A stretch of 64,000 nucleotides of DNA from a virus (taxonomy: Duplodnaviria; Heunggongvirae; Uroviricota; Caudoviricetes), in IMG/VR virus record IMGVR_UViG_2861084961_000001; one strand, 5' to 3'. Position numbers and translations under genes: made by a program. Below the pieces are notes generated by a model that worked only from the letters and a program-made list of their open reading frames with translations, was not told where the DNA came from and did not search any database. This document shows, in pieces, positions 3,163 through 61,049 of this stretch (its first letter is position 1; each line of letters begins with the position of its first letter).

Positions 3163-3205
3163 CTAATACTAGAAAACAATTTGTTTAAAAAACAAAGGAA
3201 AGCAC

Positions 3206-4546
3206 ATGACCGAACTTTGCCATACAGGACGCGGGCTGTCCGAAGAGTTTGATGAAGATTTCCAGAACAGACTGACGGCATATTTTTGTCGTGATCACGA
3301 GTTTCTTACTCGTGCGGGAGATCTGGTTGTGCCTAGCCAATTTGCCAATGCGGCCAATGCCATATTGGTTAATATGGTTTCGGGCTATTACCGTATGTAC
3401 AAGAGCGCGCCCTCTTCATCTGCAATTCTGGATATGCTTAAGCGTGCGAAACGCGATAAGACTATCCGTGAGGAACTATTCGCCGATGTTGTTGCTGCGT
3501 TTAAGCGCATCCTTGCAGAAAAATTGTCCGATACCTCGTACATGGTTGACCAGGTATCAACCTTCGCAAAAAGCGTAGCGTTTGATGATGCTCTGATTAA
3601 GGCTGCTGAACTGAAAGAGAAGGGCGACTTTCAGGGGGCGATGGCAATCATGGCCAAGGTTCAGCAGATTGGATCGAACGAAGCGACCGGAATCTATGAC
3701 TACTACACCTCCGCAAGTGAGCGATTGAAAGCGCGTGAATATGAGGCTTCAGAGGAGTATGTACCAAACAGTATTACAACTGGACTCCCTCTTCTCGATA
3801 GGTTGCTGTACCAAAAAGGCTGGGCAAAGCGCGAAATGGTGCTCTTCATGGGGTTCGCTAAATCCGGTAAATCGACCGCAATGGGTGAGTTTTCCATAAA
3901 CGCAACGCTTGCTGGCTACAATGTTCTGTATCTCTCGCTGGAGGTTCACACCAACATTTTGTCCGACCGCTTTGATGCAAGATTGTCGGAGACGGAAATG
4001 TCCAAGCTGGTGGAACGGCGCGATGAAGTTCATCGTAAGTTGGCAGAGTTGGGAGCCACGAAGGGGATTGGTAGTTTGTGGGTTGTTGAGCGTCCGTCAG
4101 GAAGTATGTCACCGGCAGATCTGGACCGTATGCTTAACAGCATGAAAGCCAATGGCATGGTGCCTGACATGGTTGTTGTCGACTACGCAGATTTGATGCG
4201 TGCCAGTTATGACCTTCGTGATGATCGCGCCAATATTCGTAGTATCTACACCGATTTACGTGCTCTTTATGACAAACATAACGTTGCTGGGATCACGGCA
4301 TCGCAGACAAACCGTGAAGGTGGCGCGTCAGAAGTTGCCACAATGATGCACGCTGCCGACAACATCGAAAAAGTACGTATTGCTGACCTGGTAATAACGA
4401 TCAACAAAACCGAAGAAGAAGAAGCGAAAGGAGAGGCTCGTCTCTACTTTGCTGGTTCGCGTAACCAGCAGGGAGGGATCAGCATTCGCGTTAAACAAAA
4501 TCTCGAACAAATGCGCTTCATTGAGCGAATCTTAGACGTTACCTAA
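3206..4546 (+). CDS. DnaB-like replicative DNA helicase
   Basis: RecA-fold C-terminal domain with Walker A GFAKSGKST and Walker B VVVDYADLM; conserved upstream AAAGGAAAGCACATG start context. Confidence 0.8.
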   Translation: MTELCHTGRGLSEEFDEDFQNRLTAYFCRDHEFLTRAGDLVVPSQFANAANAILVNMVSGYYRMYKSAPSSSAILDMLKRAKRDKTIREELFADVVAAFKRILAEKLSDTSYMVDQVSTFAKSVAFDDALIKAAELKEKGDFQGAMAIMAKVQQIGSNEATGIYDYYTSASERLKAREYEASEEYVPNSITTGLPLLDRLLYQKGWAKREMVLFMGFAKSGKSTAMGEFSINATLAGYNVLYLSLEVHTNILSDRFDARLSETEMSKLVERRDEVHRKLAELGATKGIGSLWVVERPSGSMSPADLDRMLNSMKANGMVPDMVVVDYADLMRASYDLRDDRANIRSIYTDLRALYDKHNVAGITASQTNREGGASEVATMMHAADNIEKVRIADLVITINKTEEEEAKGEARLYFAGSRNQQGGISIRVKQNLEQMRFIERILDVT

Positions 4547-4627
4547 AAAATAAGCGTGGAGAACACCTCCACGCTTGATTCATTGGTGAAACAACTTTTC
4601 TTTTGCCAAACCACAAAAGAAAAACAC

Positions 4628-5809
4628 ATGAGCCTTTATGTTATATCAACATTTAGGTTGGTCACAATATTGCCTGTTAAAAGTGGAATTATCGTGAGCG
4701 AGCTGAAAGAGCTAATTACCGAATTAGATTTTGAACAATGGTTGGATACTGAAGGTATCGTTTATCGACGTGGAGGCGTGAGTGCTCGCGGTCGTGAAGT
4801 GAATATCAAGGAGTGTCCGGTATGCGGCAGCTCCAACTGGAAGGTATATTTCAATCTGACCAGCGGCGTCGGTAAATGCTTCGCTGGTGATCATCCCGAA
4901 GAGATTCAGTTCAATAAGCTGGTCTTCCTCAAGCACTACAGCGGTAAATCACGACGACAGTTCGAGGAATATGTGCAGAACGCTCTTCTTTCCCAGGGGT
5001 GGGCACCAAAGAAAGAAGAGATAGTGCTTGCAAGCACAGTCGAGTTAGAGGGACCACTTGCACTCCCTCGTCATTACGAACTTCCTATAGATGGCCGTCT
5101 TCCAGACTATCTGGTTGAACGAAACATATCGCCTGAAATGGCAAAGTATTTTGACCTACGATACTGCGTCGAAGGCAAGCACGCTTATGTTGACCCGTAT
5201 ACAGATCAGGTTAAAGGACAGATATTCGATATGCGAATACTGATACCGGTTTACGATCTGGATGGGGTAATGAAGACATTTCAGGGGCGAGACATTACCG
5301 GTGCAGCAGAACGTCGCTACCTCTTTCCTATGCAGCTTCCAGCTTCAGGTAAGTTTCTCTACAACGGCCATAATGCGCTCGGCAAACAGACTGTAGTTGT
5401 CTGTGAGGGGGCGTTCGATGTTATGGGGGTTAAACGAGCTATTTTTGATGAAGAAACATTACGTGATTACGTGGAACCGATAGGAACGTTCGGGATGCAT
5501 CTATCTGGCAACACCACTCAAGATGCAGAAGATCAGTTGGGCGCGTTCCTGACGCTCAAGGCACGTGGATTACGTAATGTGATCATGATGTGGGATAGTG
5601 AAAAGCAAGCTATACGCAACACTATGGCCGCGGCCAGGCGACTGACCAGTATTGGTCTTAATGTCAAAGTAGCGTGTTTGGGCGAGGAAGGACTCGACCC
5701 CGGCGATGCAACGCCAGAACAAATTATCAAAGCCTATTATCGGGCAAAACCGTATACCAAACAGTTGGAGTTGCAAAGCAAGGTTTTAGGCATTAAGGCT
5801 CTATCGTAA
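4628..5809 (+). CDS. DNA primase (zinc-finger + TOPRIM)
   Basis: CPVCGSS...GKCFAGDH zinc-binding motif; TOPRIM-like VVVCEGAFDVM; start chosen at ATG 4628 preceded by conserved AAAGAAAAACACATG rather than the longer ORF start 4556. Confidence 0.75.
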   Translation: MSLYVISTFRLVTILPVKSGIIVSELKELITELDFEQWLDTEGIVYRRGGVSARGREVNIKECPVCGSSNWKVYFNLTSGVGKCFAGDHPEEIQFNKLVFLKHYSGKSRRQFEEYVQNALLSQGWAPKKEEIVLASTVELEGPLALPRHYELPIDGRLPDYLVERNISPEMAKYFDLRYCVEGKHAYVDPYTDQVKGQIFDMRILIPVYDLDGVMKTFQGRDITGAAERRYLFPMQLPASGKFLYNGHNALGKQTVVVCEGAFDVMGVKRAIFDEETLRDYVEPIGTFGMHLSGNTTQDAEDQLGAFLTLKARGLRNVIMMWDSEKQAIRNTMAAARRLTSIGLNVKVACLGEEGLDPGDATPEQIIKAYYRAKPYTKQLELQSKVLGIKALS

Positions 5810-5884
5810 CAAGTGCCGCTAAAATAAGTAGATGATTACTTATCTTTCTGTAAGAATACTTTCATCTGTTAGCTAGGAGTTGGT

Positions 5885-6667
5885 ATGAAAGACGAAATTC
5901 AGAAATTAGCCTGCGACATCATTGATAAAACTGGTTTAGAAATCAGCGAGAGCAATCGGCTAGACATCATTGAAAAAGCCGTAAAAACAGCAATGGATCA
6001 TATCGCCACTCGTTTGGTTGAGATCCCGCTACCAGGGCTACCTTATCTGAAGGTTAAGTTGTGCGTATGGGGCGAACCTGCACATGCACGACGTTCTGCA
6101 TTAGTTGTTTTTGTACGCAAAGAAAACTTACGTACTCTAAAAGTGCAGGTTGGGGCGTGGTTTGATGGCAGAGTCATCTATACAGATACCATTATCTGTC
6201 CTCCAGGTGACGAACATATTGAAGCCGTCATTCGAGAGTCAATTCGAGCTATGCGCAGTTTAGCTTTGCTGGAAGACAAGCAAAACTTTGAAGATTACTT
6301 GCTGTCGGTAAAAGCTGAACCAACATTGTCTCTAAAAGCCGATTTCGTCACCCCGACAAACCTATTGGAAGTCTTGCTTAATAAAGGGGCTAATGATGCC
6401 GTAAATGTAATCAGAGAGAGTGAGTATGCGTCTCTTTGCGACATGTGCAAAAGCCAGTTGGATCTGGTGCATATCGTTATTGATGCTGGGAAGGCATGTG
6501 ATGGCGTAATGGCGGAATTTGCTGGGAAGATGGTCAGGATTGCTAACGAATTACCGATGATAGAGCAAGAGGCTAAATCATACGCCACCAATCATGTCAC
6601 AGAGCTTCTTGTCCCCTATCGCTTAGAAAGCAATCAGCGCAAGATGATTAGCTGGGGAAGTTGGTAA
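5885..6667 (+). CDS. Hypothetical protein (260 aa)
   Basis: ORF in operon context. Confidence 0.45.
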   Translation: MKDEIQKLACDIIDKTGLEISESNRLDIIEKAVKTAMDHIATRLVEIPLPGLPYLKVKLCVWGEPAHARRSALVVFVRKENLRTLKVQVGAWFDGRVIYTDTIICPPGDEHIEAVIRESIRAMRSLALLEDKQNFEDYLLSVKAEPTLSLKADFVTPTNLLEVLLNKGANDAVNVIRESEYASLCDMCKSQLDLVHIVIDAGKACDGVMAEFAGKMVRIANELPMIEQEAKSYATNHVTELLVPYRLESNQRKMISWGSW

Positions 6668-6723
6668 TCTCTCCGCGCGTCGTTTTTTTACGCAAACAAT
6701 GATAGGTAAGTACAAGATTATCT

Positions 6724-7206
6724 ATGGTGATGGTTGTGAAAGCTGATTTGTCAAAAATCCCCTCTATTTCAGGAAATAATGGTTATTCACTTCGTTGTGA
6801 GGAAGTAAAGATAAACGGTGAGTCGGCATATTGCAGCTACTCCGTTTGCCAGCACACCATTCTTGCCTTCAAAGAAAACCGTCTTCCTCGAACTTCATTC
6901 CAGTCGTGCGCAACCGCTATCAAAGCAGGCAAATGCAAGGCGTTAAAAATGATGGTTGAAGAGATTCGTAAAGGAGAATCTCTGTATTTCGAAGATATGA
7001 CCGCGCTCATTAATGAGGTTGAAGAACGGAATAAACAAGCCAGAACTATAAAACGAAAACGTGACAGTGTAACGATTAATAGCATGGTTAAGAAGAGCGC
7101 CACATCACAAACAGCGATCACTGACGTGTATGCGGCGTTGCTTGAAGAAACAACAAAAGAAACACATGAGCAAATCGATCAACATATGGAGGCAAAACAA
7201 CAATGA
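6724..7206 (+). CDS. Hypothetical protein (160 aa)
   Basis: ORF; stop overlaps ligase start. Confidence 0.4.
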   Translation: MVMVVKADLSKIPSISGNNGYSLRCEEVKINGESAYCSYSVCQHTILAFKENRLPRTSFQSCATAIKAGKCKALKMMVEEIRKGESLYFEDMTALINEVEERNKQARTIKRKRDSVTINSMVKKSATSQTAITDVYAALLEETTKETHEQIDQHMEAKQQ

Positions 7207-8524
7207 AAAAGTTGATCGCACTTAAGCATAAGCTGGACGAAATGAAAGCTATGGGAACCAATGCAAAAAAAGAGGCATTGGCCAACATGGATGACTTCGA
7301 GCAAAGCATGGTTTCATTGATGCTCAACCCTTTCATCCGTTTTGGGGTAAAGAAATACAAAGTGGCAGAGCCGCTTAGTGAGTCCGTCCCAAGTGACGAA
7401 AAAGCCATTGATATACTGAATAAGCTGGCCTCTCGCGAGCTGACGGGGAACGCAGCAATAGCTGCTGTTGAGTCTATCGTGGCGTCAATGTGCGCCGATG
7501 GGCAGGACGTGTTCCGTCGTTTCCTCTTAAAAGACCCGAAAGCAGGTGTTGGGATTAGCCTATGCAACAAGGTTTTGAAAATCCCATTCCGAAATTCGAG
7601 GTGCAGCTGGCGTCACCGTATAAAGAAAAAGGCGACAAATACCCCTTCAAGCCAAATCCTAAAGCAAAATGGCCGATGATTGGCAGCCTTAAGCTCGATG
7701 GTTTGCGAGTAATTTGCGAGGTTATTGTTGACGAGGAAGAGGTGAACTTCCTTTCTCGTACTGGTAATCCAATCACGTCTCTCGATCACCTAAAGCCAGC
7801 CATGCTCGAATTAGGCAAACTTTCAGGCCACAAACACATCTTCTTCGATGGTGAAGGAACAGCCGGTTCATTTAACCAGTCCGTATCTGCATTGCGCAAA
7901 AAGAACGTGCAGGCAATTGGCGCTATTTATCATGTTTTCGACTTCTTCCTACCGGAATGGTGGGCACAGGCTAAATCCAAAGAGTATGCAAAGACAGGTA
8001 TGAAGCTGAAAGAGCGCCTGGCTATGCTCGTGGCGTTGTTCAAAAACGATCGCAGTGAAGACTATGCGCAAGACATTCACCTGCATCCGTTCTACATCAT
8101 CCATAGTCACGAAGACTTCATCGAACGCTTCATGAAACGCCTGGACGATAACGAAGAAGGGGAGATGGGCAAAGATCCGAACTCTGTTTACGAGTTTAAA
8201 CGTACCCGCAGCTGGTGGAAGTTAAAAGACGAAGATTCAGAAGATGGTGAAATTATCGACTTTGAGCCGGGTGACCCGGACTCTGGTTTTGCCAACACGC
8301 TTGGAAAAATTGTTATTCGCCTTGAAAACGGTGTGATTGTTCGTGCGAGCGGAATTAAGCATAAATATCTGGACGAGATCTGGAACAACAAAGAGAAGTA
8401 CCGTGGTCGTATTGTCGAGGTTCATTGTCACGAGAAAACGCCGGATGGCAGCTTACGCCACCCACGACTGAAATGGCCGCGTTGCTTACGCGATACAGAA
8501 GATCGAATCGGAGATAAAGAATGA
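7203..8524 (+). CDS. ATP-dependent DNA ligase (T4-type), reading frame broken at T-run 7573-7576
   Basis: N-terminal part LTGNAAIAAVE...GISLCNKV resembles T4 ligase N-domain; second frame carries adenylation motif SLKLDGLR (KxDG); inserting one T in the tttt run restores NKVFENPIPKF. Confidence 0.8.
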
Positions 8525-10111: not shown

Positions 10112-10186
10112 GATGGTGTAGCTCAGCGGTAGAGCAGTTGGCTGTTAACCAACTGGTCGGTGGTTCGAATCCACCCACCATCGCCA
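10112..10186 (+). tRNA. tRNA-Asn (anticodon GTT)
   Basis: Cloverleaf by eye: acceptor gatggtg/caccatc, anticodon loop ctGTTaa, T-loop ggttcgaat, CCA end. Confidence 0.8.
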
Positions 10187-10191
10187 ATTTA

Positions 10192-10278
10192 GGGGAGTTA
10201 GTCCGTAGAGGTAGCGGTGTAGACTGTAAATCTACTGTCATGGCGACTCGGGTGGTTCGACTCCATCACTCCCCACCA
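10192..10278 (+). tRNA. tRNA-Tyr (anticodon GTA), type II with long variable arm
   Basis: Acceptor ggggagt/actcccc, anticodon loop ctGTAaa, T-loop ggttcgact, CCA end. Confidence 0.75.
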
Positions 10279-10282
10279 AATT

Positions 10283-10358
10283 GCCGGTTTAGCTCAGTTG
10301 GTAGAGCGCCTGCCTTGTAAGCAGGATGTCAGCGGTTCGAGTCCGTTAACCGGCACCA
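10283..10358 (+). tRNA. tRNA-Thr (anticodon TGT)
   Basis: Acceptor gccggtt/aaccggc, D-arm agctcagttggtagagc, anticodon stem cctgc/gcagg with loop ctTGTaa, CCA end. Confidence 0.75.
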
Positions 10359-10582
10359 ATACAACGATAAGATCATTACGGTTAATCGTCGTTCATGTGC
10401 ACAATGACTGGTCGAAAGGTAGTGATCTTACCGTTGTGGTGGATTCGCAGACTGATGCGATAGCTTTCTTGGATGTTAGGGAAATGCGGCCGCAAATCTT
10501 CCCTTTCGCGAGCGGTGATCGTCCGTAGTCCTAATTGGCTGCACCGTATGCCGGAGATTCAGTACCGGCCACCACAACGGCC

Positions 10583-10669
10583 GGAGAGTAGGGAGCATGG
10601 TGCTCAAGCTGTCTTGAAAACCGCCCCATTGCGCAAGCGATGATGGTTCGATTCCATTACTCTCCGCCA
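10583..10669 (+). tRNA. Type II tRNA-like gene, anticodon TGA (Ser?), imperfect stems
   Basis: Acceptor ggagagt/actctcc, loop ctTGAaa, T-loop ggttcgatt, CCA; anticodon stem and variable arm pair poorly, may be non-canonical or pseudo. Confidence 0.5.
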
Positions 10670-11925: not shown

Positions 11926-12171
11926 ATGACGATCACTATCTACGGACGAGATAACTGCTCATACTGCAAACGTGCAGTCGAGCTGGCGAAGCAACTAAAG
12001 GGACATGGCTACGGTGATTATGAGTACATCGACATCACCACTGCCGGTATCGACAAGGAAAAACTAAGTGAAATTGTTGGTAAACCGGTAGAGACTATCC
12101 CCCAGGTGCTGATCGATGGCCAGCCGATTGGCGGATACACAGAACTGGCTGCATACGTCAGCACCCTCTGA
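11926..12171 (+). CDS. Glutaredoxin (Grx1/NrdC-like)
   Basis: 81 aa; CSYC active site near N-terminus; PVETIPQVLIDGQPIGGYTEL closely resembles E. coli glutaredoxin 1. Confidence 0.8.
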   Translation: MTITIYGRDNCSYCKRAVELAKQLKGHGYGDYEYIDITTAGIDKEKLSEIVGKPVETIPQVLIDGQPIGGYTELAAYVSTL

Positions 12172-12381
12172 TTTTAACGGCTCACAGGAGCCGTTTTTAT
12201 TCCCACCAAACTCACTCCTGTTTCCCTTAAAATTCAAAAAACGACGTCTAAATGATTCCATACCTACTATGTATGGAATCATTACTGAAAATGAGTTACT
12301 TTTACTCTTGATCCTATAAGAATCTATGCCTAATATACTGTTTACTTATACAGTGCATCGGCGTAACTCGGTGATTGTCAT

Positions 12382-13483
12382 ATGAAAAATAGCTTTGACA
12401 GAGCACGCGCTGCGGAGAACACCTCAAAAGAGGCGATTGAGTATCTCGAAAGAGCATCTCAAATGCAGGCCGTTATGATCTCCCAGGTCAGCAATGACAT
12501 GAGATTCTCGGACGCATTCATGTTATTCACTCGCTTATCTCTGCTGATAACCAGACGTCGGCCAGAGATCGCTGTTCATTGTATTTTGATACATGTTTTG
12601 CCGCACATTGCTGATGTAAAAGTAAGTGACATTAATAGGTTCATGGTGAACCAACTGGTCAACCCCCTAATACTGGATGGCAAAATTGTTATGGGCCGCC
12701 GCGTTTTCTCTCTGATGAAGCAGTTCCTTAGCTGGTGCGCCTTCCAGGGGATGATAGACGTGTCACCGTTAAACGATATGTCACTAAACAAAGTTGCCGG
12801 TGGCGCAAAGCCCACACCTCGCGAGCGTAAGCTGACCGACGCAGAGGTATGGGTGTTCTGGAATATATGGGACTACTTCAATGTGTGCGCTGGTACAAAA
12901 TGGGCGGCCAGGCTGTGTCTTGTATCAGCAAGACGACCTGACGAAGTACTGCGGGCTAAAAAAGTGAGTTCAATCTTAAGCGTGGAGTTTGGAATCAAGG
13001 CAAGAGAAACAAGTCAGCACGTGAGCATTCGCTGCCTTTAAGCACATTAATGCGCACATGCATTGAAGAGTTGTTCGAATACGGTAAAAACAGCCAGTGG
13101 CTCGTGCCTTCGAATAAAAAATCGGGAAAGACCTTCCTATGTCTAAAGTGGCAATAGCCCAGGCATTACGTCGTATTCTGGAACGACCAGAACTGATGGA
13201 GCTTGAGCCATTTACACCCCGAGATTTGCGCCGTACTGCGCGTAGTTACTTCCCAGCATTAGGCATAAGCCAGGAGGTATCACGCAAAATCATGAACCAC
13301 AGTCTTGAGGGGATAGATCGGGTCTACGACCGGCACGATTATATGGACGAGATGCGAGACGCCTTAGAAAGTTTCTCGACGTACATCGCATCAATCGTAG
13401 AGCAACCGGATTTAGACGAAATTGACCACAAATTCAAGGGAGATCGTCTATCAACAGAGCTTATTCGTGTAAATTTTTCATAG
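12382..13483 (+). CDS. Tyrosine recombinase/integrase (P4-like), frame broken twice (around 13041 and 13139)
   Basis: C-terminal HSLPLSTLMRT..., FTPRDLRRTARSY..., IMNHSLEGIDRVYDRHDY resemble integrase catalytic region (R..H..R..Y); three frames all shifting -1. Confidence 0.6.
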
Positions 13484-13864
13484 AGACTTTATGGCCTCAA
13501 CAACCTTTTGTGATGCGCCTTTCTCTTTACCGAATCGCTCGTTATATGCAGCAAGAACCTGTTTTTCGTCCTCGTTAAGAGGAGCGGTGCCTTCTTTGTA
13601 TAAAAATGCTGCGAGTTCAGGTTGGCGTTCTTCCAGCACCATCATCATAAGACGACTTGGCTCAATACCCAGCGCCAGCGCCAGCGGACGAACCTTATCG
13701 ATAGGCAAAGGAATTTTGCCACTTTTAATTAAAGAAAGGTTGTTGGCATTTTTATAACCAATAAGTCTGGCTATTTGGGCCTGACTCATAGGTGAGGATT
13801 CAATCAGCCCTGCGATAAAAGCAGCATAGCGACTTTCTATAAATTCAATCTTGTTGTCAGACAT
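13478..13864 (-). CDS. XRE-family HTH transcriptional regulator (CI/Cro-like repressor candidate)
   Basis: Helix-turn-helix SQAQIARLIGYKNANNLSLIKSGK; divergent from downstream operon; palindromic ggtaagtgcttacc in its upstream region. Confidence 0.7.
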   Translation of the reverse strand: MSDNKIEFIESRYAAFIAGLIESSPMSQAQIARLIGYKNANNLSLIKSGKIPLPIDKVRPLALALGIEPSRLMMMVLEERQPELAAFLYKEGTAPLNEDEKQVLAAYNERFGKEKGASQKVVEAIKSL

Positions 13865-13894
13865 TGTTACAACCTTTGCGCGTTTAATTCTCTC

Positions 13895-13908
13895 TGGTAA
13901 GTGCTTAC
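13895..13908. promoter_or_regulatory. Palindromic operator candidate GGTAAGTGCTTACC in the XRE regulator promoter region
   Basis: Perfect 14 bp palindrome; same half-site as dispersed intergenic motif. Confidence 0.5.
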
Positions 13909-14115
13909 CGATATTACATCAAAGGTTAGGGTTGTAAAGCTATTATCATTTTTTTCGGCAGGCACTTGTAAGACCGAGCAAAGGTCCATGCATGGAGAAA
14001 AACTAGCCCCAAATAGGTAAGAAAATTAACTTGCATCTGATATGGATGTATTCAGTATTGATACAAATTTTAGTAGTATTCCTTACCATAGTATAAGTTA
14101 GAATGGATTGATTGA

Positions 14116-14328
14116 ATGAAAACCACTATTTCCAGCCTAATCGCTCTTGAGATCGGACACGTACAGAAATTAGCTGATGAGTGTGTAGCTGACATCCTCA
14201 CCGATCTACCGAATGAGCAGATTCAGGTTGGTGTGAATGACACAACTGGCTTTATATTCGAACTTAACAACAAACGCTTCACACTTCTCAATACCGGCTC
14301 CGGGTCTTTAGCCATCAGAATCTGTTAA
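14116..14328 (+). CDS. Hypothetical small protein (70 aa)
   Basis: ORF only. Confidence 0.3.
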   Translation: MKTTISSLIALEIGHVQKLADECVADILTDLPNEQIQVGVNDTTGFIFELNNKRFTLLNTGSGSLAIRIC

Positions 14329-14426
14329 CCCCTCTTCTCCCTGCGCGAATGGCTTAGTTCCCTGTTCGCGCAGTGCTACATTAAACACACTAGTAAATAA
14401 TTTGTTTTCATAACAAAGGATTAGCC

Positions 14427-16534
14427 ATGTCTAAAAAACGTTCCATCAAAGAGGTTCAGGACTTCCGTGACAGTGTAAAACGAGTAGTCGCTCTCCTTTC
14501 AGGTAAAAACATCCCTGTTGCAGAACGAGGGGACGACGCTTATGTACGCTATAACGATGATGGAGAGCCAATTCTCGTAAACATCCCATCAATCCCGGAT
14601 AACGCAACACCGGCATTGATGAATGCTGTGCGCGGATTTCTCGATCATGAGGTTGCTCACATTTTGTTTACCGATATTCGTGTGTCCAACAAAATGAGAG
14701 AAAAAGGACGCGTTCCTTCCTGGTCACTATGGAATGCCTTAGAAGACGTGTTCATCGAGCGAAAAATGGGGCAGGTCTTTAACGGAACGAGACGTAATCT
14801 GATGGCAACTCAGCGCCTTATAATCGAAAAAGTCTTTAAACCAAAGGCTTCAGAGGCTATTGATTATTGTGGCAAAGATCAGCGCGCGCTTTTTCTAAAC
14901 TTCTTTCTCTGTCCGGTTGTAAGAGCCTGGGATGGCCAAGCACCGTTCGTAGATTTCATGGATGAATACTGGCCTGTCATTGAGAAACCAATTTCATTAT
15001 TAAAAGAACATGGTATCGATGTGGCCGTGCGTAACATGTCTTGCACCGAGGATTGTGTAAAGGTGGCTGCGACCATAGCTAAGATCCTCAAAGACACTGA
15101 AAGTGAAAGCAAAGGTAAGGAGTCAGCTCCGGGAAAAACTTCCGATCCTTCAGATACTGACCAAACGGATGCCTCTGGAGAAAACAATGAAGACAACGAA
15201 GATCATGAGACACCCTCAGCGTTAGATAATCACAAATCTATCGAATCAGAATCACACAGTAAGCACAAACATGATAATAACGACAGTGATGATTCAGATA
15301 ATTCTGAATCATCAGAAACAATATTCGATGATACAGAAAATGATAAAGAGGTATCAGATTCTGATGCTTCTGATAACGCGGCGTCAGAATCATTAACCGC
15401 TGACCACGAAAAAAGAAAAACGACAGAAGACGGCTCTTCAGATATTCCAACTCCGTCAAAAATGAGTCTGGAAGAGGCTTTAGAGGAGCTGGATAGCATA
15501 GAAGATGAAGTCGGAGGCATGACAGAAGATGCTCTATCCGAAACGATTAAAAGCGAGTTAACAGAAAGCTCGAAAGCGAATACAGGCCATACAATCGCTC
15601 ATACGACTTCATCGGCTCGATTGATCAGGCAGAAGCCCATATCAAACGGCTTATTAAAACATTCTCCGATATTGATTTAGGAGGATATCCAATCAGCCGC
15701 TATCGCATCGTTCCTGAAGGCAACCAGCTCTTCGACAAATATATTGAAAAGCATCTTTCGTCAGGTGTTTCGTCGACGCTGGCAAAAGACCTGGAGCGAG
15801 CAATAGCAAGCAGAAACAGAGTTCAGTTTATACCGGGCCAGCGTCGGGGGCGCATTCATGGTTCTAGTATCTACAGATTAGCAATGAATGATGATCGCGT
15901 GTTTCGTAAAAAAGAAGAATCTAAAGCCGTTAACGCCTGTGTTCAACAAGTGATTGATTTATCAGGTTCAATGAGTGGTATAACGATACAATTGGCTCTT
16001 GCAAGTGCATATACCATCGCCGATGCCCTTGATCGAATAAATGTTCCCAACATTATCACCGGCTTCACTACATTTGGTAGTCATATGGCGGCAGGAGAAC
16101 TTAAGGCTGTCAAGTATGAGTTCTCTCGCTTTGAATCTTTAATGCTACCTATCATCAAAAATTGGAATGAAAAGGCAAATTCTCGCGAAGTTCGCTCACG
16201 TATGGGGTGCGTAGGCTACACATTCCCACTTCTTAATAACGTGGATGGTGAAAGCATAGCCAGCCTTGCATCGTTATTTTCTGGTCGCATGGAGGACAAG
16301 AAGATCATGCTTGTTCTAAGCGATGGCGCGCCGTGGGCTGTTGGGAGAGGTTTTGACGCTCATTTGCGTTCGGTTGCGAAGCAAATTGAAACGCAGACTG
16401 ACATTGATTTGATGGCAATTGGCATCATGACTGACGCACCGGAGAGATTTTACGCAAACCATGCCCTGGTAACGAGCGTTGATAGTCTTGGTTCATCTGT
16501 AGTTACTGAACTATCTCGTATCATTTTGAAGTGA
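14427..16534 (+). CDS. CobT-like vWA-domain protein with acidic Ser/Asp-rich linker; frame broken near 15550-15600
   Basis: C-terminal vWA MIDAS motif VIDLSGSMSG; long D/E/S-rich low-complexity region; conserved AACAAAGGATTAGCCATG start context; second frame is open upstream of 15884. Confidence 0.6.
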
Positions 16535-16629
16535 TTAGAACAGCCTTAATGATAAGTAATCACTTACGTTATTTGATGGTATATTTATATAAGAAGTTGA
16601 AAGCTCATTAGAAAACAAAGGAAAAACGC

Positions 16630-16902
16630 ATGACTACTACTGCACTGCAAAATGAAAAAAATCCTTCTGATTACCTTGTTTGCAAGTGGTGCGGAAAATC
16701 ATTTCACTATTTTAAGTCCCATGTAGCCAATGGTAATTGCGAGGGCATTCCTGAGTCAGTAAAAGATGCCGATCCTGACACCGTACTGAAAATGTACACA
16801 ACGCAGTTTCCAGATGAGCCAACGCTATCGAAAAAGGCACTTGATGCAATTCAAGCTAAACGTGCCGAGCAAAAAGCGAAATGGCCAAATCATCTGGCGT
16901 GA
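16630..16902 (+). CDS. Small zinc-ribbon-like protein (90 aa)
   Basis: CKWCGKSFHYFKSH...CEG cysteine/histidine cluster; conserved start context. Confidence 0.4.
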   Translation: MTTTALQNEKNPSDYLVCKWCGKSFHYFKSHVANGNCEGIPESVKDADPDTVLKMYTTQFPDEPTLSKKALDAIQAKRAEQKAKWPNHLA

Positions 16903-17864
16903 CCAATAGCCCAGGCTATACAGGCACAGTTGAGTACAAGACAGATCTGGTCGCAGCTCACGAACTGCTAAATGTAACGGTGAAAGAACTCGGAACAAAA
17001 CGTGGGACGCCGCTCATGGTTAGCGTCAACGTCAATACGCCGTTTCCAGAGTTCGTTCCAGAAGTGAAGAAGGGATACGTATATGGCGACTTCGAACTGA
17101 TCAAAGACATTTTCATGATGCTTGAACTTGGCATACCAGGCTATTTGTGGGGTCATGCAGGAACAGGCAAATCTTCATTGCCTACACAACTATGTGCTTT
17201 GCTCAATCGTCCGTTAATCCGTGCCCAACATACAGCATCAATGGAAGAGGCTCATGTTACGGGACAAATTCTGGCGCGTGATGGCTCTACGTATTTCGAG
17301 CCTGGCTTGCTTGCGCTCGCAATGAAGCATGGCTGGGTTTACCTCGCGGATGAATACGACTTTGCGTTTCCACAGATTCTTGGCGTGTATCAGCCAGTGC
17401 TGGAAGGTGAAGCGTTGGTCATCAAAGAGGCGACTCCAGAATGGCGTCGCATTACTCCGCATGAACGGTTTGCTTTCATTGGCACTGGCAACACGAACGG
17501 ATCTGGTGATGAAACCGGCTTGTACCAGGGTACAAACATCCAGAACGCCGCTAACTTTTCGCGTTTTGGCATCGTTTCGAATGTGAAATACATGAGCAAA
17601 GAGGCAGAGATCAACATGTTGATAAATGCCGGCATCGTGGATGAATACGCTGAAAAGATGGTTAAGTTTGCCGGTATCGTTCGCGATGGATACGAAGAAC
17701 ACCTGATCAGTCAGCCGATTGGCCCTCGTGAACTTTTGTTGTCGGCCAAGATTGGAATGATGCGAGGCGACTTTGTGACAGGTATTGAGCGTTCTTTCAT
17801 TAACAAACTCCCTTCAGCTTCTGCGCAAGCGGCACGTGAAGTTGTTCAAAAAATATTTGGTTAA
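16881..17864 (+). CDS. MoxR/CobS-like AAA+ ATPase
   Basis: Walker A GHAGTGKSS, Walker B WVYLADEYD; size and pairing with vWA protein. Confidence 0.75.
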   Translation: MAKSSGVTNSPGYTGTVEYKTDLVAAHELLNVTVKELGTKRGTPLMVSVNVNTPFPEFVPEVKKGYVYGDFELIKDIFMMLELGIPGYLWGHAGTGKSSLPTQLCALLNRPLIRAQHTASMEEAHVTGQILARDGSTYFEPGLLALAMKHGWVYLADEYDFAFPQILGVYQPVLEGEALVIKEATPEWRRITPHERFAFIGTGNTNGSGDETGLYQGTNIQNAANFSRFGIVSNVKYMSKEAEINMLINAGIVDEYAEKMVKFAGIVRDGYEEHLISQPIGPRELLLSAKIGMMRGDFVTGIERSFINKLPSASAQAAREVVQKIFG

Positions 17865-18043
17865 TCGTGCGTAAAGGATGTTTCGGCTCTCTTATCGCTG
17901 CTTCTGAAACTGGCAAGGCTTGTCTGGTGTGTCCAGACAAGCCCGATTGTCACCAATCAGCAAAAGAAGTTGCGATTTCGATGTATGGGAAGTTCGTAGG
18001 CTTCCCCAATGACAAAATCAAAAAACCAGAAAGGTAAAAACAC

Positions 18044-21000
18044 ATGAAGGCTCTGATGGTTCGAACTGACTTCTCTCTTGGGGAGTCGGCTCTAAAAGCA
18101 GAAAACGCGGTGAAGATTGCCAGAGAAGCTGGCTACACCGCTGTAATTTCGGCAGATAGCATGAATATTGCGAGTGTTATTCCACTACAACGTGCCGCTG
18201 GTGACGACATGGCGGTTATTTGTGGTGTGAAACTAAACATTGTTGATGATCCCACATACGAGCACCGGGCTAAACTTGCTAAAGAGTCTATGGGATGTAT
18301 GGAATCATTAGAGCGTGGGCGGAACTACTCCTTTACCGCTCTAATTAAAAATGAGCAGGGATATCGAGACATCTGCGAACTAATGACGGCGGCCAACACA
18401 CGAGAACAGTTCTACTTTGTACCGCGTCTCTCGCTCGAACAGTTGGTTTCTACATATGCCAAAGGCAACATCATCCTGCTAACTTCCGACATCGGTAGCG
18501 TGTTCCAACGCAACGATTTTGCAAAAATCATAAGCTCACTGATTACAGCGGGTGGAAAAGACAACTTCTATAGTGTGGTTTATCCGCACCCTACCCATTC
18601 TACGACCAGATTAACGTCCGGGCGATGAAAGTCGCCAGCGCACTGAAAATAGAGCCAGTAGCGTTCTATCCCGCTTATTACGAATCGATCGACGATGCAG
18701 ACATTAAAGACATTGCGCACATGGTTACGAACAACATCAAAATCGACCAGCCGCATCGTCTGCGTATCCCCACCAGCGAGATAACGCCGTCAATTGTCGC
18801 CGCCATCTCCTTGAGGCGCTGAAAGCCTTCTCCGTTCGCATGGATGTGCCGGTAACAGCTGCAATGGCCTCAACAACGCAGGATACCATTATCGATGCCT
18901 GCACATGGCGCTGGCATGAATTGCCACCAGCACTGCCAAAGATGGCAGACGACGAGCCTGCAACTCTGATGAAACTGGCCGTTGCTGGGCTGCGTAAACG
19001 TCTTACCACAAAAGAGTTTGGCTACACACCACCGGCTTCTGAGAACAGGGTTTATGTTGAGCGACTTAAGTACGAAATGGATACGCTGACTCGCCTGGGA
19101 TTCTGTGGTTACTTCCTGATGGTGCGCGATCTGATGAATCATAGTCGTGAAACTGGCATTCCCGTTGGGCCTGGTCGTGGTTCCTCTGCTGGCTCTTTGG
19201 TGGCATGGTGCATAGGCATAACCAACGTCGACCCAATCCGTCACGGTCTTCTGTTTGAACGTTTCATCAACCCTGAGCGTCTCGACTTGCCGGATGCGGA
19301 TTTGGACTTCAGCCAGGCACGTCGCCATGAAGTGATCGAGTATCTGAATGAACGCTACGGCGAAGATTACGTTGCGGGTATTCCGAACTTCACATATCTG
19401 GGCGCAGCCTCTGCACTACGTGACACCGCTCGTATTTATGGTGTGGAGTCCGCAGATATGGCGGTATCAAAGAACTGAAGAACGTCGAGGATGATAGCCT
19501 TCCATTGGAAGAACTGCGCGAACAACTGGCAAGTCTCGACAAATACGCAACAAAATATCCTGATGCATTCAATGCAGCCTGCAAGTTACAAAGCCTTATG
19601 CGTGGCTTTGGTAGACATGCGGCAGGGATGATCGTAGCAGGTGTTCCTCTGACAGAACGTACACCGGTTGAACGACGTGGTGACGCGCGTTGTATCGCAT
19701 TTGACAAGCGTTACTGCGAGGCTATGGGCCTAATTAAGCTGGACGTGCTTGGCCTGGCAACTCTCGATTTGCTCGATAGTGCAAAACGCTACATAAAAGA
19801 GAACACAGGTGAAGATATCAATCTTGATGCCATTTCTCTTGAAGATCGCAAGGTGCTGGATGGTTTTGCTGCTGGGTACACTCAAGGTGTTTTCCAGCTT
19901 GAATCAGGCCCAATGCGCAAGCTGCTTAAAGATTTAGGTGGTGGAATTGAGCCAATGAGCTTTAAAACGGTCGTCGCTACGACTGCGCTCTTCCGGCCGG
20001 GGCCAATTCAGTCAGGCATGTTGGATGACTATGTTTCTGTAGCCAAAGGCTTTATGAAGCCGGAATCATTACACCCCGTTCTTGATGAACTTACCGCAGA
20101 AACAAATGGCGTGATTCTCTATCAGGAACAGACGATGAACGCGACTCGATTGCTTGCTGGCTTCACAATGGCTGAAGCTGACGGTGTTCGTAAAGCGATC
20201 GGCAAAAAGGACATGGAAAAATGAAGAGCATGGGCGAGAAGTTCATCGTTCAGGCTCAAGCTGGCTGGATAGACGTTGAGCTGGAAGATGGCACTACACA
20301 GCGCATTCACCGTGCGGAACATTTTAAATGCGAAGACGGAACTCTGAAAACTGTCGAAGAGGCACTTGAGTACGGCGCAAAACTACCTATAAACGCAGTA
20401 CGCGTTACAGCGTCACATCCAGGGCTATCAGAGATGAAAGCGAAGGAGATCTGGACCGCATTCGAAAAAAATGGAGCCTACCAGTTCAACAAATCACACT
20501 CTGTTGCTTACTCCTTAATCAGTTATCAATCTATGTGGTTGAAAACTCATTATCCCGCAGAGTTTTCGCTGCTGCTCTCACTATTCTTGGCGAAGATAAA
20601 CACCAGGGGCTGGTTAAAGATGCGCTGACCTATGGTATTCGCGTATTGCCACCAGACGTTAACGTGTCATCTAACCGAATCGAGATCCGCACGCTTGAAG
20701 ATGGCAGCCAGGTGCTGTATGCGCCCTTCTCTGCTGTGAAGGGGTGTTCTGAGAATGGCTGCCAGGCCATCATGAGAGCGCGAGAAAGGGTTGGCGGCAA
20801 ATTCGAGTCACTGGCGCAATTCGAAGAAGCTGTCGAGAAACGTGCCTGTAATAGTCGAGTGCGCGAATCACTGCAAAAAGTAGGTGCGTTTGCGTCCATA
20901 GAGCCAGGTAGTCTGCCAGCAACTGATCCAGAGCGTCTCCGCGACCAAGCAGAATTGATGGGAAACCTTGTCATAGATGCAGTTAAAGCCTCACGTCCGT

Positions 21001-21556
21001 TTGAGATGAACCCCAAACGTTCGGCTGAGATTAACGTGCTCATGACACGGATGGCGGCTGAAATGGGCTTAGGTGATGAACTAATCCGCCCAGCATTGGT
21101 ATTAAGCCGAAAATCATGATCATTCTGGACAATGCGAACGGCAATGATGCTCGAACCGGTTACTTCATGGAGAACGGATACGACGATTTTAAGGCCAAGC
21201 TATTGACGGCTGGAGATTTACGCATGGGCGATCTCTATGTCACAGGCGTTTGCAAAAAGGTGAAAGACAAAGAAAAGGACTACACCAAAGACGAGATCGG
21301 CCAGTTCACCGACTTTATGCGTGAAGAGATCAATCTGGTGCGTCCGACCTATGTGCTGACGTGTGGCAGCCGGGCAACGGCATTGTTTAACAACAAAAAC
21401 AAGCCATCCGATTTGGTCGGCAGGAAGGAGTATCTTCCAGACCTTGACGTTACTGTCTTTTACGGGTTTAACCCCAACATTCTTTACTTCAGACCTGAAG
21501 AGGGAGAACGACTAGAAGCGATATTAGCCGACGTAGCAGAAACTATTAAGACGTGA
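18044..21556 (+). CDS. dnaE: DNA polymerase III alpha-like (DnaE-type) replicative polymerase, split into 7 frames by -1 shifts
   Basis: PHP-like N-terminus, [42 protein letters not shown] polymerase core motif; summed length ~1170 aa matches DnaE; consecutive ORFs 18044,18625,18840,19505,20221,20535,21116 each shift frame by -1. Confidence 0.7.
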
Positions 21557-52643: not shown

Positions 52644-52784
52644 TACTGCACCAGTCGACAGGGGGCGAAAGCCCCCATTTTTACGCCTTAAATCTGCTGT
52701 AACGCCTATGAATGCAGCTTTTATGCCTTTTCAAGTTTGCGATAATTACACCAATAAGAAAACAAATTATTTAATGGTGTAATT

Positions 52785-54470: not shown

Positions 54471-54531
54471 TAGGTAAATACTTACTTAATTTATGTAAGA
54501 ATGTAGTAACTAAACGATAAGAGAAAAACAC

Positions 54532-55616: not shown

Positions 55617-55735
55617 GCGCTACAAATCCTTCTGCATGAATAAATAAAGGCCATAACTTATGGCCTTAAATAAATTGTTTTCTACCTTTTCTTATTTGTG
55701 AAAATAACCACAACTAGAAAACAACGGAGTTAAGA

Positions 55736-56520: not shown

Positions 56521-56526
56521 TTTGCT

Positions 56527-61024: not shown

Positions 61025-61049
61025 CAGAGCCGCAAACTCTGTTTCCTTT

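What the first reader, a model, noticed from the sequence alone, without database searches (positions are those of the whole stretch)
14427..17864. CobT-like vWA protein with a long acidic Ser/Asp-rich linker, a small zinc-ribbon protein and a MoxR/CobS-like AAA+ ATPase
This is a three-gene module: a vWA protein with MIDAS motif DxSGS and about 170 aa of D/E/S-rich low complexity, a 90 aa Cys/His protein, and an AAA+ ATPase. It resembles the CobS/CobT pairs recalled from some phages and MoxR-vWA chaperone systems. Its function in phages is unknown, and the acidic tract is unusual.
Basis: partly seen in the sequence, partly recalled or inferred. Interest (0 to 1): 0.55.

Follow-up and report, generated by a model that had tools for sequence, protein, structure and literature searches.

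The report
Phage CobT/CobS-like ATPase–protease gene pair
This is the already catalogued two-gene "CobT/CobS-like" module of SSU5-type phage-plasmids of E. coli (an AAA+ motor plus a vWA adaptor with a conserved zinc-protease-like head); it looks like three or four genes here only because two single-base sequencing errors break the reading frames, and its real job is still untested.

Summary
The window is an SSU5-like E. coli phage-plasmid, 98-99% identical to more than 200 sequenced plasmids and phages. In intact relatives the interval holds two genes. One is a 702-aa CobT-related protein: N-domain, about 170-aa acidic linker, then vWA/MIDAS. The other is a 411-aa CobS-like AAA+ ATPase.

The "90-aa Cys/His protein" is the N-terminal zinc-knuckle domain of the ATPase. 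The vWA protein is itself split in two. Both breaks are one-base shortenings of A-runs. They belong to 29 clean single-base differences across the window, and in all 29 the window is shorter. I read this as sequencing error.

The acidic tract is a family hallmark and is also present in canonical CobT. Neither protein reaches the NCBIfam ortholog cut-offs for cobaltochelatase CobT or CobS. E. coli has no CobN partner and lacks the substrate.

The N-domain carries an HExxH...E zincin signature in 149 of 150 diverse relatives. Canonical CobT has DSMALR at that position.

In three phage lineages the pair sits inside the DNA-replication module. I infer an ATP-driven, MIDAS-targeted protein remodelling and processing machine that acts early in infection. 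The module is known and its function is untested, so interest is low to moderate.

The parts
14427..16534 (+). CobT-related gene: zincin-like N-domain, acidic linker, vWA/MIDAS. It is 702 aa when the frame is repaired. In the window it is split between frame 0 (14427-15680) and frame 2 (open 15551-16534).
   Evidence: Pfam CobT covers residues 9-294 at 5e-27 and CobT_C covers 492-701 at 2e-83.
14646..14660 (+). HEVAH, the HExxH motif (residues H74, E75, H78).
   Evidence: One search gives the coordinates. The motif is present in 149 of 150 representatives at 50% clustering or below. It is invariant in 59 diverse full-length proteins. It lies in helix 62-81 of the AF2 model.
14742..14759 (+). 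EDVFIE motif (E106, D107, E111) on the helix after the HExxH helix. It is the candidate third zinc ligand, as in gluzincins.
   Evidence: The residues are invariant in A2. They lie in helix 97-117 of the model. One search gives the coordinates.
15096..15611 (+). Acidic Ser/Asp/Glu-rich linker, residues about 224-395. It is 30% D+E, 27% S+T and only 13% hydrophobic.
   Evidence: One search gives the composition. An equivalent linker is present in canonical CobT and in the relatives. There is no tandem-repeat structure.
15573..15575 (+). Frameshift site 1. The window has an A3 run where pGD31-F25 and phage Cyrano have A4.
15956..16327 (+). MIDAS residues of the vWA domain: DLSGS at 15956-15970, FTT at 16064-16072 and LSDG at 16316-16327.
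   Evidence: One search gives the coordinates. The residues are nearly invariant in A2. They align to the solved CobT vWA domain.
16630..17864 (+). CobS-like AAA+ ATPase gene, 411 aa when the frame is repaired. In the window it is split into ORFs 16630-16902 and 16881-17864.
   Evidence: It matches solved CobS 9ujv at 1e-25 and phrog_249 at 2e-105.
16681..16740 (+). Zinc knuckle of the ATPase N-domain: C18-x2-C21, then H31, then C37. Distant relatives have C-x2-C-x9-H-x4-H.
   Evidence: See alignments A1 and A3. The AF2 model shows a beta-hairpin plus helix with pLDDT 79-94 over residues 12-86. One search gives the coordinates.
16871..16875 (+). Frameshift site 2. The window has an A5 run where phage Cyrano has A6 and pGD31-F25 has AAATAA.
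17151..17360 (+). Walker A (GHAGTGKS, 17151-17174) and Walker B (ADEYD, 17346-17360).
   Evidence: One search gives the coordinates. K181, D241 and E242 are invariant in 40 relatives.
14116..14328 (+). Conserved 70-aa ORF directly upstream on the same strand (phrog_2627, unknown function). It is the probable first gene of the same transcription unit.
17867..18037 (+). Small Cys-rich ORF (phrog_6337) between the ATPase gene and dnaE. Its start lies 2 nt after the ATPase stop codon.
18044..21556 (+). Phage-plasmid dnaE (Pol III alpha) immediately downstream. In the window it is fragmented by six more homopolymer deletions.

Best explanation
The interval holds the two-gene viral-type CobT/CobS module of an SSU5-like phage-plasmid of E. 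coli. It appears as four ORFs because two homopolymer bases are missing from the assembly.

Gene 1 (702 aa) has three parts: an N-terminal zincin-like domain with an invariant HExxH...E site, a disordered acidic linker of about 170 aa, and a C-terminal vWA domain with a complete MIDAS.

Gene 2 (411 aa) is a MoxR/CobS-clade AAA+ ATPase. It carries a lineage-specific N-terminal beta-beta-alpha zinc knuckle.

Shown here: the identity and architecture of the genes, the conservation of the catalytic-looking residues, the artefactual splitting, and the placement in the replication module.

Inferred, by analogy with the CobST, BchID, NorQD, CbbQO and RavA-ViaA systems: the ATPase forms a hexameric ring that docks the vWA protein. 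The MIDAS then captures an acidic residue of a target protein, and ATP hydrolysis is transmitted through the charged linker to remodel that target.

The active-looking HExxH domain is absent from true CobT. It suggests that the captured target is also cleaved or processed.

The pair sits among replication genes in three phage lineages, and the host lacks CobN. The target is therefore more likely a host or phage protein handled at the replication or host-takeover stage than a corrin ring.

My confidence is about 0.95 for identity, architecture and artefact. It is about 0.4 for the remodeller-plus-protease mechanism, and lower still for any specific target. The single figure given (0.5) is for the whole statement taken together.
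For: Identity:
- The interval is 98-99% identical in DNA to phage Cyrano, PhiR41_1 and 215 E. coli plasmids, and about 75% identical to Salmonella phage SSU5.
- The relatives annotate two CDS, of 702 and 411 aa.

Artefact:
- A one-base repair restores each full-length protein.
- All 29 clean single-base indels shorten the window.

Domains:
- Pfam finds CobT, CobT_C and AAA_5.
- Solved CobS and CobT structures are matched.

Zincin signature:
- HE[VIC][AGS]H is present in 149 of 150 representatives.
- H74, E75, H78, E106, D107 and E111 are invariant in 59 sequences that share 30-66% identity with the window N-domain.
- The AF2 N-domain model has pLDDT 94. Its order of three strands, HExxH helix and Glu helix is that of zincins.
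- T4-like cyanophage homologues are annotated as 'peptidase' (phrog_459).
- Iyer et al. 2021 describe a phage MoxR + vWA pair with an N-terminal metallopeptidase domain (PMC7824862).

The ATPase looks active: Walker A and B and several arginines are invariant.

Not a cobaltochelatase:
- NCBIfam CobT scores 69 bits against a cut-off of 759, and CobS scores 86 against 558.
- Canonical CobT has DSMALR where this family has DHEVAH.
- CobNST acts on HBAD of the aerobic pathway, which had to be engineered into E. coli (PMC6249242).

Replication context:
- SSU5-like elements: integrase, repressor, CobT, CobS, DnaE, SSB, 5'-3' exonuclease, RecA.
- T4-like cyanophage P-SSM7: the pair lies between gp46/nrdC and gp45/gp44/gp62.
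- ICP2-like Vibrio podovirus: the pair lies directly upstream of primase, helicase and DNA polymerase.
Against: - There are no experimental data for any viral CobT/CobS pair.
- An HExxH...E site could bind a metal for another purpose than proteolysis.
- Gene neighbourhood in phages partly reflects expression timing rather than function. The SSU5-like, Rhizobium-phage and metagenomic examples belong to one extended lineage, so there are effectively three independent contexts.
- Co-transcription is only inferred, from the shared strand, the short gaps and the absence of predicted terminators between the genes.
- Absence of CobN from E. coli rests on established knowledge and on the window and plasmid annotation. 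I did not search all host genomes.
Confidence: 0.5

Rival explanations
1. Auxiliary metabolic gene. The pair are working cobaltochelatase S and T subunits. They take over a host CobN (or ChlH-type) subunit to raise cobalamin synthesis during infection.
For: - This is the reading given for the viral cobST cluster in PMC8651126 and for ICP2 in PMC3037004.
- Homology to CobS and CobT is real.
- The acidic linker, the MIDAS and the ATPase motifs are all retained.
Against: - Scores are far below the NCBIfam equivalog cut-offs.
- The N-domain keeps an HExxH site that canonical CobT lacks.
- The ATPase lacks a detectable CobS_N domain and has a zinc-knuckle extension instead.
- No CobN is encoded in the window or in the annotated parts of pGD31-F25 that I saw.
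- E. coli has neither CobN nor the aerobic-pathway substrate. This rests on established knowledge and on PMC6249242.
- The element's own ribonucleotide reductase is class Ia, which does not depend on B12.
- About 1000 plasmids of Klebsiella, Escherichia, Acinetobacter, Yersinia and Salmonella carry the module.
Confidence: 0.07
2. Virion-assembly chaperone and protease. The MoxR-vWA pair folds or assembles structural proteins, and the metallopeptidase domain processes them. This is the proposal made for T4-like jumbo phages, and it parallels tail development in Acidianus two-tailed virus.
For: - The proposal is in PMC7824862, which cites the ATV MoxR-vWA tail system.
- It fits the general remodeller logic and the conserved HExxH site.
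Against: - In all three lineages examined the pair lies in the replication or early region, next to DnaE, or clamp and clamp loader, or primase, helicase and polymerase. It does not lie with head or tail genes.
- In the phage-plasmid it follows the repressor and integrase region directly.
- Position is suggestive only and is not a measurement of expression.
Confidence: 0.15
3. Metal-centre maturation factor. Like NorQ/NorD, CoxD/CoxE or CobST itself, the pair inserts or exchanges a metal in a phage-encoded enzyme of the same module. Candidates are the class Ia RNR beta subunit and the PHP domain of DnaE. The HExxH...E site would serve as a metal-handling site rather than a protease.
For: - The MoxR/chelatase-clade pairs listed in PMC7159879 include metal-cluster and Mg2+ insertion systems alongside other roles.
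- NorQ and NorD are weak sequence matches.
- Metal-dependent replication and nucleotide enzymes are neighbours.
Against: - No single metalloenzyme is shared by the three contexts. The polymerases are DnaE, a T4-type replisome and a DNA polymerase of a different PHROG family, respectively.
- Among the sequences examined here, the HExxH...E pattern was lost precisely in the one family member known to act in metal insertion, canonical CobT.
Confidence: 0.15
4. The reading frames are truly broken. The element is a decaying phage-plasmid in which cobT, cobS, the integrase gene and dnaE are pseudogenes. A variant of this idea is that the shifts are programmed frameshifts like the one reported for chlD.
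For: - The window sequence as given contains the frameshifts.
- Programmed frameshifting is reported for a chelatase gene (Antonov 2020, cited in PMC8651126).
Against: - All 29 clean single-base indels go in one direction and 24 lie in runs of 3 or more bases. Decay would give both insertions and deletions, as well as nonsense mutations.
- The repaired proteins are 99% identical to intact ones.
- The closest relatives shown have the intact run at both sites.
- Essential replication genes are hit repeatedly.
Confidence: 0.03

Closest known systems
The CobT-related / AAA ATPase pair of SSU5-like phage-plasmids (Salmonella phage SSU5, E. coli phage Cyrano, pGD31-F25 and similar plasmids; PHROG phrog_1576 + phrog_249)
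   Same: It is essentially the same genes. DNA identity is 98-99% to the E. coli members and about 75% to SSU5, with the same order of repressor, small ORF, CobT, CobS and dnaE.
   Different: The only difference is the two single-base homopolymer deficits that split the frames in this assembly.
Aerobic cobaltochelatase subunits CobT and CobS (EC 6.6.1.2; TIGR01651 / TIGR01650; PDB 9uka, 9ujv)
   Same: The families are homologous. The shared features are the CobT N-domain, the acidic linker, the vWA/MIDAS domain, the MoxR/chelatase-clade AAA+ module and adjacent genes.
   Different: - Scores are about a tenth of the ortholog cut-offs for CobT and about a sixth for CobS.
- The viral type keeps DHEVAH where canonical CobT has DSMALR.
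- The viral ATPase has a zinc-knuckle N-terminal extension of about 140 aa in place of the short CobS_N domain.
- There is no CobN partner in the element and none known in the host.
MoxR AAA+ plus metallopeptidase-vWA pair of T4-like (group 2.2) jumbo phages and cyanophages (Iyer et al. 2021; cyanophage 'peptidase' T4-GC146 + cobS)
   Same: - The architecture matches: HExxH N-domain (HEVGH57 in P-SSM7), a vWA domain with DxSGS, and a nearby CobS-like ATPase of the same PHROG, phrog_249.
- The pair also lies among replication genes.
   Different: - The sequences are distant. ATPase identity is about 30%, and the vWA proteins fall in different PHROGs (459 versus 1576).
- The cyanophage ATPase lacks the zinc knuckle.
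- Two small genes separate the pair in P-SSM7.
- I could not fetch the accessions named in the paper, so equating them with this family is an inference.
Cellular MoxR-vWA remodelling pairs (NorQ/NorD, CbbQ/CbbO, RavA/ViaA, BchI/BchD)
   Same: They share the two-component logic: an AAA+ ring plus a MIDAS-bearing adaptor with a charged linker (PMC7159879). CbbQ, NorQ and NorD are weak sequence matches.
   Different: Those systems have defined cellular clients. The client here is unknown. The PDB matches to these cellular pairs covered only the AAA+ and vWA regions, and I did not examine their other domains.

Membership tests
Cobaltochelatase subunit CobT (TIGR01651, EC 6.6.1.2) | Whole-protein score at or above the NCBIfam equivalog cut-off | tested here: not met
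   69 bits against a cut-off of 759.05
Cobaltochelatase subunit CobT (TIGR01651, EC 6.6.1.2) | CobT N-domain, then acidic linker, then CobT_C vWA domain with MIDAS | tested here: met
   Pfam PF06213 at 5e-27 and PF11775 at 2e-83. MIDAS residues are conserved.
Cobaltochelatase subunit CobT (TIGR01651, EC 6.6.1.2) | N-domain sequence of the canonical type (RGxGDSMALR, with no HExxH) | tested here: not met
   hhalign maps H74, E75 and H78 onto S, M and R of a canonical CobT. That CobT lies next to a canonical CobS in GCA_012103055.1.
Cobaltochelatase subunit CobT (TIGR01651, EC 6.6.1.2) | Works with CobN on hydrogenobyrinic acid a,c-diamide | not testable with these tools
   No ORF longer than 771 aa and no CobN annotation were seen in the window or in the viewed parts of pGD31-F25. 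Absence from E. coli rests on established knowledge and on PMC6249242.
Cobaltochelatase subunit CobS (TIGR01650) | Whole-protein score at or above the equivalog cut-off | tested here: not met
   86.1 bits against a cut-off of 558.55
Cobaltochelatase subunit CobS (TIGR01650) | CobS_N (PF12556) followed by an AAA_5 module, about 330 aa in total | tested here: not met
   Only AAA_5 is detected. The N-terminal 154 aa match no Pfam family. Canonical CobS in L013 is 328 aa with CobS_N.
MoxR/chelatase-clade AAA+ ATPase | AAA_5-type module with intact Walker A and Walker B | tested here: met
   AAA_5 at 1e-15. The best PDB matches are CobS, midasin, CbbQ and NorQ. K181, D241 and E242 are invariant.
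MoxR/chelatase-clade AAA+ ATPase | Helix-2 insert that defines the clade | not tested
   I did not examine it at residue level. The model is confident over the AAA+ core.
Viral metallopeptidase-vWA + MoxR pair (phrog_1576 / phrog_459 / phrog_17276 with phrog_249) | HExxH-bearing N-domain fused to a MIDAS vWA domain | tested here: met
   BFVD structural matches are to CobT or VWFA proteins of sipho-, podo- and cyanophages and of haloarchaeal viruses.
Viral metallopeptidase-vWA + MoxR pair (phrog_1576 / phrog_459 / phrog_17276 with phrog_249) | Adjacent CobS-like AAA+ gene on the same strand | tested here: met
Zincin (gluzincin-like) metallopeptidases | HExxH on one helix plus a downstream Glu on the next helix, both conserved | tested here: met
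   Invariant H74, E75, H78 and E106/E111. They lie on helices 62-81 and 97-117, which follow a three-stranded sheet.
Zincin (gluzincin-like) metallopeptidases | Significant structural similarity to a solved zincin | tested here: inconclusive
Zincin (gluzincin-like) metallopeptidases | Zinc binding and peptidase activity | not testable with these tools
   This needs biochemistry.
Anti-phage defence systems (PADLOC) | Match to a defence-system protein model | tested here: not met
   No hit for either protein

The most novel reading that the evidence does not exclude
The viral CobT/CobS-type pair has nothing to do with cobalamin. It is an ATP-driven, MIDAS-targeted zinc protease and unfoldase that phages deploy at the onset of replication. 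It would cleave or strip a conserved host protein so that the phage replisome can take over; candidates are a replisome, nucleoid or defence component. In SSU5-like elements that replisome is a phage DnaE that must work with host Pol III subunits. The zinc knuckle on the ATPase could place the machine on DNA.
Probability: 0.15. Interest if true: 0.65.

Novelty: already known. Interest (0 to 1): 0.25.

Why it matters
The pair occurs in about 1000 sequenced enterobacterial and Acinetobacter plasmids. These include Yersinia plasmids and clinical Klebsiella and E. coli phage-plasmids. It also occurs in nearly 500 phage genomes, most of them T4-like cyanophages. Most records label it 'porphyrin/cobalamin biosynthesis', and ocean virome studies count it as an auxiliary metabolic gene.

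If it is really a protein remodeller and protease of the replication stage, those metabolic interpretations are wrong, and a widespread piece of phage biology remains unexplored.

For this window the practical point is smaller. The apparent three-gene novelty is an assembly artefact, and the genes are ordinary members of a catalogued family.

Tried and rejected
- A separate zinc-ribbon gene. I rejected this because the 90-aa ORF is residues 1-82 of the 411-aa ATPase in every intact relative. The Cys/His motif is conserved as the N-terminus of full-length homologues down to 44% identity.
- Programmed frameshifting. I rejected this because the relatives have intact frames and the same kind of one-base deficit hits integrase, dnaE and many other genes.
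- Repeat structure in the acidic linker. There is only a trivial 9-nt, 2.6-copy match.
- A defence-system identity. PADLOC gives no hit.
- Promoter and terminator scans. Counts are at or below the shuffled expectation, so the scan says nothing beyond the lack of a terminator between the genes.
- Foldseek of the N-domain against PDB. Nothing is significant, and the solved CobT did not appear in the list.
- The afdb50 fold library was not available.
- hhalign of the family profile against a truncated canonical CobT returned only the C-terminal match. I solved this by recovering the true N-terminus from genomic DNA.
- Literature searches found no experiment on the function of the viral pair or on its expression timing.
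- The Xanthomonas phage JGB6 hit looked like a CobS-DnaE fusion. It is a heavily fragmented and mis-annotated record.


Full report
**What is at the coordinates**

ORF listing of 12000-20500 shows four + strand ORFs in the flagged interval, not three:
- 14427-15680 (417 aa)
- 15884-16534 (216 aa, carrying DLSGS)
- 16630-16902 (90 aa)
- 16881-17864 (327 aa)

Translating all three frames around 15400-16000 shows that the second ORF's frame is open from 15551. It reads on from the first ORF's sequence with a one-base slip near 15575. The "vWA protein" of the finding is therefore itself split.

**Where the window comes from**

The interval is 98-99% identical to Escherichia phages PhiR41_1 and Cyrano. 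It is also 98-99% identical to plasmids in 215 of 5426 complete E. coli genomes, never to chromosomes. It is about 75% identical to Salmonella phage SSU5. The window is therefore an SSU5-like phage-plasmid.

In plasmid pGD31-F25 and in phage Cyrano the same stretch holds two annotated genes. One is a 702-aa "cobaltochelatase CobT-related protein". The other is a 411-aa "AAA family ATPase". A 70-aa ORF lies upstream and dnaE lies downstream.

**The frameshifts are artefacts**

Alignment of the window to pGD31-F25 shows two differences inside the interval:
- The window lacks one A in the run at 15573-15575. It has A3 where the relatives have A4.
- The window lacks one base in the run at 16871-16875. 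It has A5, where Cyrano has A6 and pGD31-F25 has AAATAA.

Putting one base back at each site gives full-length proteins. They match the pGD31-F25 proteins at 695/703 and 410/412 positions, stop included.

Across 48 kb of alignment there are 29 single-base indels with identical 8-nt flanks. The window is shorter in all 29 and longer in none. Twenty-four of them lie in runs of three or more bases. The same defect breaks the integrase gene twice and dnaE six times.

One-directional loss in homopolymers is the signature of base-calling or assembly error, not of decay or programmed frameshifting. The "three-gene module" is a two-gene module. The "90-aa Cys/His protein" is the N-terminus of the ATPase.

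**Domain content**

For the intact 702-aa protein:
- Pfam gives CobT (residues 9-294, 5e-27) and CobT_C, the vWA domain (492-701, 2e-83).
- PHROG gives phrog_1576, of unknown function.
- The solved cobaltochelatase CobT (9uka) matches at 2e-16 for the single sequence and 3e-64 for the family profile.

For the 411-aa protein:
- Pfam gives AAA_5 (1e-15).
- PHROG gives phrog_249, labelled "porphyrin biosynthesis".
- Solved CobS (9ujv) matches at 1e-25, followed by midasin, CbbQ and NorQ.

The linker (residues 224-400) is 30% D+E, 27% S+T and 13% hydrophobic. It has no repeat structure.

The linker is not unusual for this family. The solved CobT has the same kind of tract. Nearly all full-length relatives have a 100-aa window that is 40-66% D/E.

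**Not orthologues of the chelatase subunits**

The NCBIfam equivalog models score 69 bits (cut-off 759) for CobT and 86 bits (cut-off 558) for CobS.

A search of 1.8 billion cluster representatives with the N-domain gave 1122 hits. Of the best 150, 149 carry HE[VIC][AGS]H at about residue 70, and the exception is a fragment. All but one of the full-length proteins carry DxSGS.

In 59 diverse full-length sequences that share 30-66% identity with the window N-domain, the invariant N-domain residues include D73, H74, E75, H78, E106, D107 and E111.

To compare with a true CobT I recovered the N-terminus of a canonical gene. That gene lies beside a canonical 328-aa CobS (CobS_N + AAA_5) in GCA_012103055.1. 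Profile alignment places S, M and R of its "RGLGDSMALR" opposite H74, E75 and H78. The "EQARVE" helix is retained (consistent). The viral type therefore keeps a zincin-like HExxH...E site that the real chelatase subunit has lost.

**Structure of the N-domain and of the ATPase**

The AF2 model of the N-domain is confident (pLDDT 94, pTM 0.89). It shows a helix, three strands, the HExxH helix (62-81) and the Glu helix (97-117). This is the order seen in zincins.

Fold searches give only weak support:
- Foldseek against PDB is not significant.
- Against viral models, the domain matches CobT/VWFA proteins of siphoviruses, podoviruses, cyanophages, Gordonia phages and haloarchaeal viruses.

The ATPase model (pLDDT 88) shows a confident N-terminal beta-hairpin plus helix. 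This holds C18, C21 and H31; the fourth ligand is C37, or His in distant relatives. Two helices follow, then a disordered stretch (87-98), then the AAA+ core.

The Cys/His pattern, the YxxxFPDAPTLS motif and all the ATPase motifs are conserved down to 44% identity. The CobS-like proteins of cyanophage and of the ICP2-like phage lack this knuckle.

**Context**

In the phage-plasmid the gene order is: integrase, divergent repressor, 70-aa ORF, CobT, CobS, small Cys-rich ORF, dnaE. After two or three genes annotated hypothetical come a 5'-3' exonuclease and RecA. The wider plasmid annotation also lists helicase, primase, ligase, class Ia RNR, thymidylate synthase and DHFR.

Metagenomic relatives at about 46% identity and a Rhizobium phage keep the CobT-CobS-...-DnaE-SSB order. 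They belong to the same extended lineage.

Two independent lineages agree:
- In the T4-like cyanophage P-SSM7, the "peptidase" (HEVGH57, DWSGS400) and cobS lie between gp46/nrdC and the clamp and clamp-loader genes.
- In an ICP2-like Vibrio podovirus, CobT (HECYH64) and CobS lie directly upstream of primase, helicase and DNA polymerase.

Within the window the genes share a strand. The gaps are 95 nt and 2 nt, and no terminator is predicted in them. Co-transcription is likely but not shown.

**Literature**

- Liu et al. [quoted passage not shown] They propose hijacking of host CobN (PMC8651126).
- Seed et al. 2011 made the metabolic suggestion for ICP2 (PMC3037004).
- Iyer et al. 2021 describe a phage MoxR + vWA pair with an N-terminal metallopeptidase domain and propose virion assembly and processing (PMC7824862).
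- I found no experiment on any viral pair.

**Mechanism**

What is shown is the anatomy, the conservation and the context. The rest is inference from the MoxR/chelatase clade, summarised in PMC7159879.

In that scheme the ATPase ring docks the vWA protein. The MIDAS captures an acidic residue of a client. ATP hydrolysis then acts on the client through the charged linker.

The conserved HExxH...E site argues that the client is also cleaved. The chelatase reading is unlikely here for four reasons:
- The host lacks CobN and the aerobic-pathway substrate (established knowledge; PMC6249242).
- The element encodes a B12-independent RNR.
- The ortholog cut-offs are missed.
- The N-domain differs at its key site.

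The assembly reading is weakened by the consistent early/replication position of the pair, though position is not function. A metal-maturation role for a neighbouring enzyme remains possible.

I rate identity and artefact at about 0.95. I rate the remodeller-plus-protease mechanism at about 0.4. I cannot name the client.

**Verdict**

- The module is already known and catalogued. About 1000 plasmid records and nearly 500 phage genomes carry it.
- Its three-gene appearance is an assembly artefact.
- Its acidic linker is typical of the family.

What remains interesting is general to the family rather than to this window. This is a very common phage gene pair that is routinely counted as a cobalamin gene. 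It looks instead like an AAA+-driven zinc protease of the replication stage, and nobody has tested it.

Noticed in passing
whole window; for example 12963 and 13121 (integrase), 18025, 18596, 18771, 19471, 20217, 20566 and 21091 (dnaE region), 37004, 38099, 51409: The assembly has systematic single-base deficits in homopolymers. There are 29 clean cases over 48 kb aligned to pGD31-F25, and the window is shorter in every one. Many genes in the window therefore appear split: integrase into 2-3 pieces and dnaE into about 7. Any ORF-based reading of this window needs frame repair first.
   Followed up: yes
L002 (phage Cyrano OV696614) 4128-7567: The Cyrano record annotates the pair as 'dimethylbenzimidazole phosphoribosyltransferase' and 'cobalamin synthetase'. 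Those are the unrelated Salmonella-nomenclature CobT and CobS enzymes, so this is a name-collision annotation error. Most plasmid records say 'porphyrin biosynthesis protein'.
   Followed up: partly
window 17867-18037: A small Cys-rich ORF (56 aa as read; C5, C19, C22, C28, H29) lies between the ATPase gene and dnaE and matches phrog_6337. It is not annotated in the RefSeq plasmid. Its 3' end is affected by the A7-to-A6 deficit at 18019-18025. More distant relatives have a sigma-70-like gene at this position (L005, L012).
   Followed up: partly
window 13896-13909, also about 14015-14022 and 14082-14091: A perfect palindrome, GGTAAGTGCTTACC, lies in the intergenic region between the divergent repressor gene (13478-13864, minus strand) and the ORF70-cobT-cobS-dnaE gene string. 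Further GGTAAG / CTTACC half-sites occur nearby. These are possible operator sites.
   Followed up: no
window about 52700-61400: This accessory region has no counterpart in pGD31-F25, which carries a type I restriction-modification system in roughly that position. Here it encodes a DUF4942 protein (561 aa), an HD-domain protein, an Ead/Ea22-like protein and several ORFs with no Pfam match.
   Followed up: partly
window 10112-10669: A tRNA cluster (Asn-GTT, Tyr-GTA, Thr-TGT, Ser-TGA) lies upstream of the glutaredoxin and integrase genes, as in related phage-plasmids.
   Followed up: no
L013 (GCA_012103055.1) about 2470-4380: The canonical cobT gene used for comparison is itself frameshifted in its genome assembly. 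Its gene call is truncated to 459 aa, and the true N-terminus is in another frame upstream. Most top canonical CobT hits in the protein database were N-terminally truncated fragments.
   Followed up: partly
L009 (Xanthomonas phage JGB6 OQ436456): The record has heavily fragmented genes. The CobS-like ORF is annotated as 'DNA polymerase III subunit alpha'. This is another low-accuracy assembly of an SSU5-like layout.
   Followed up: no
alignment A1 rows P0163, P0164 and P0170; L012 6977-8212: In some distant CobS-like relatives and in the Rhizobium phage, the second Cys of the zinc knuckle is replaced by Asp (C-x2-D). The knuckle may therefore be degenerate or may use a different ligand set in those lineages.
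   Followed up: no
plasmid census: The CobT-like protein is encoded on 1012 PLSDB plasmids: Klebsiella 347, Escherichia 228, Acinetobacter 147, Enterobacter 92, Yersinia 63 including Y. pestis, and Salmonella 49. Most are non-mobilizable, and the records listed are mostly about 100-120 kb. This suggests that phage-plasmids with this module are very common in clinical isolates.
   Followed up: partly
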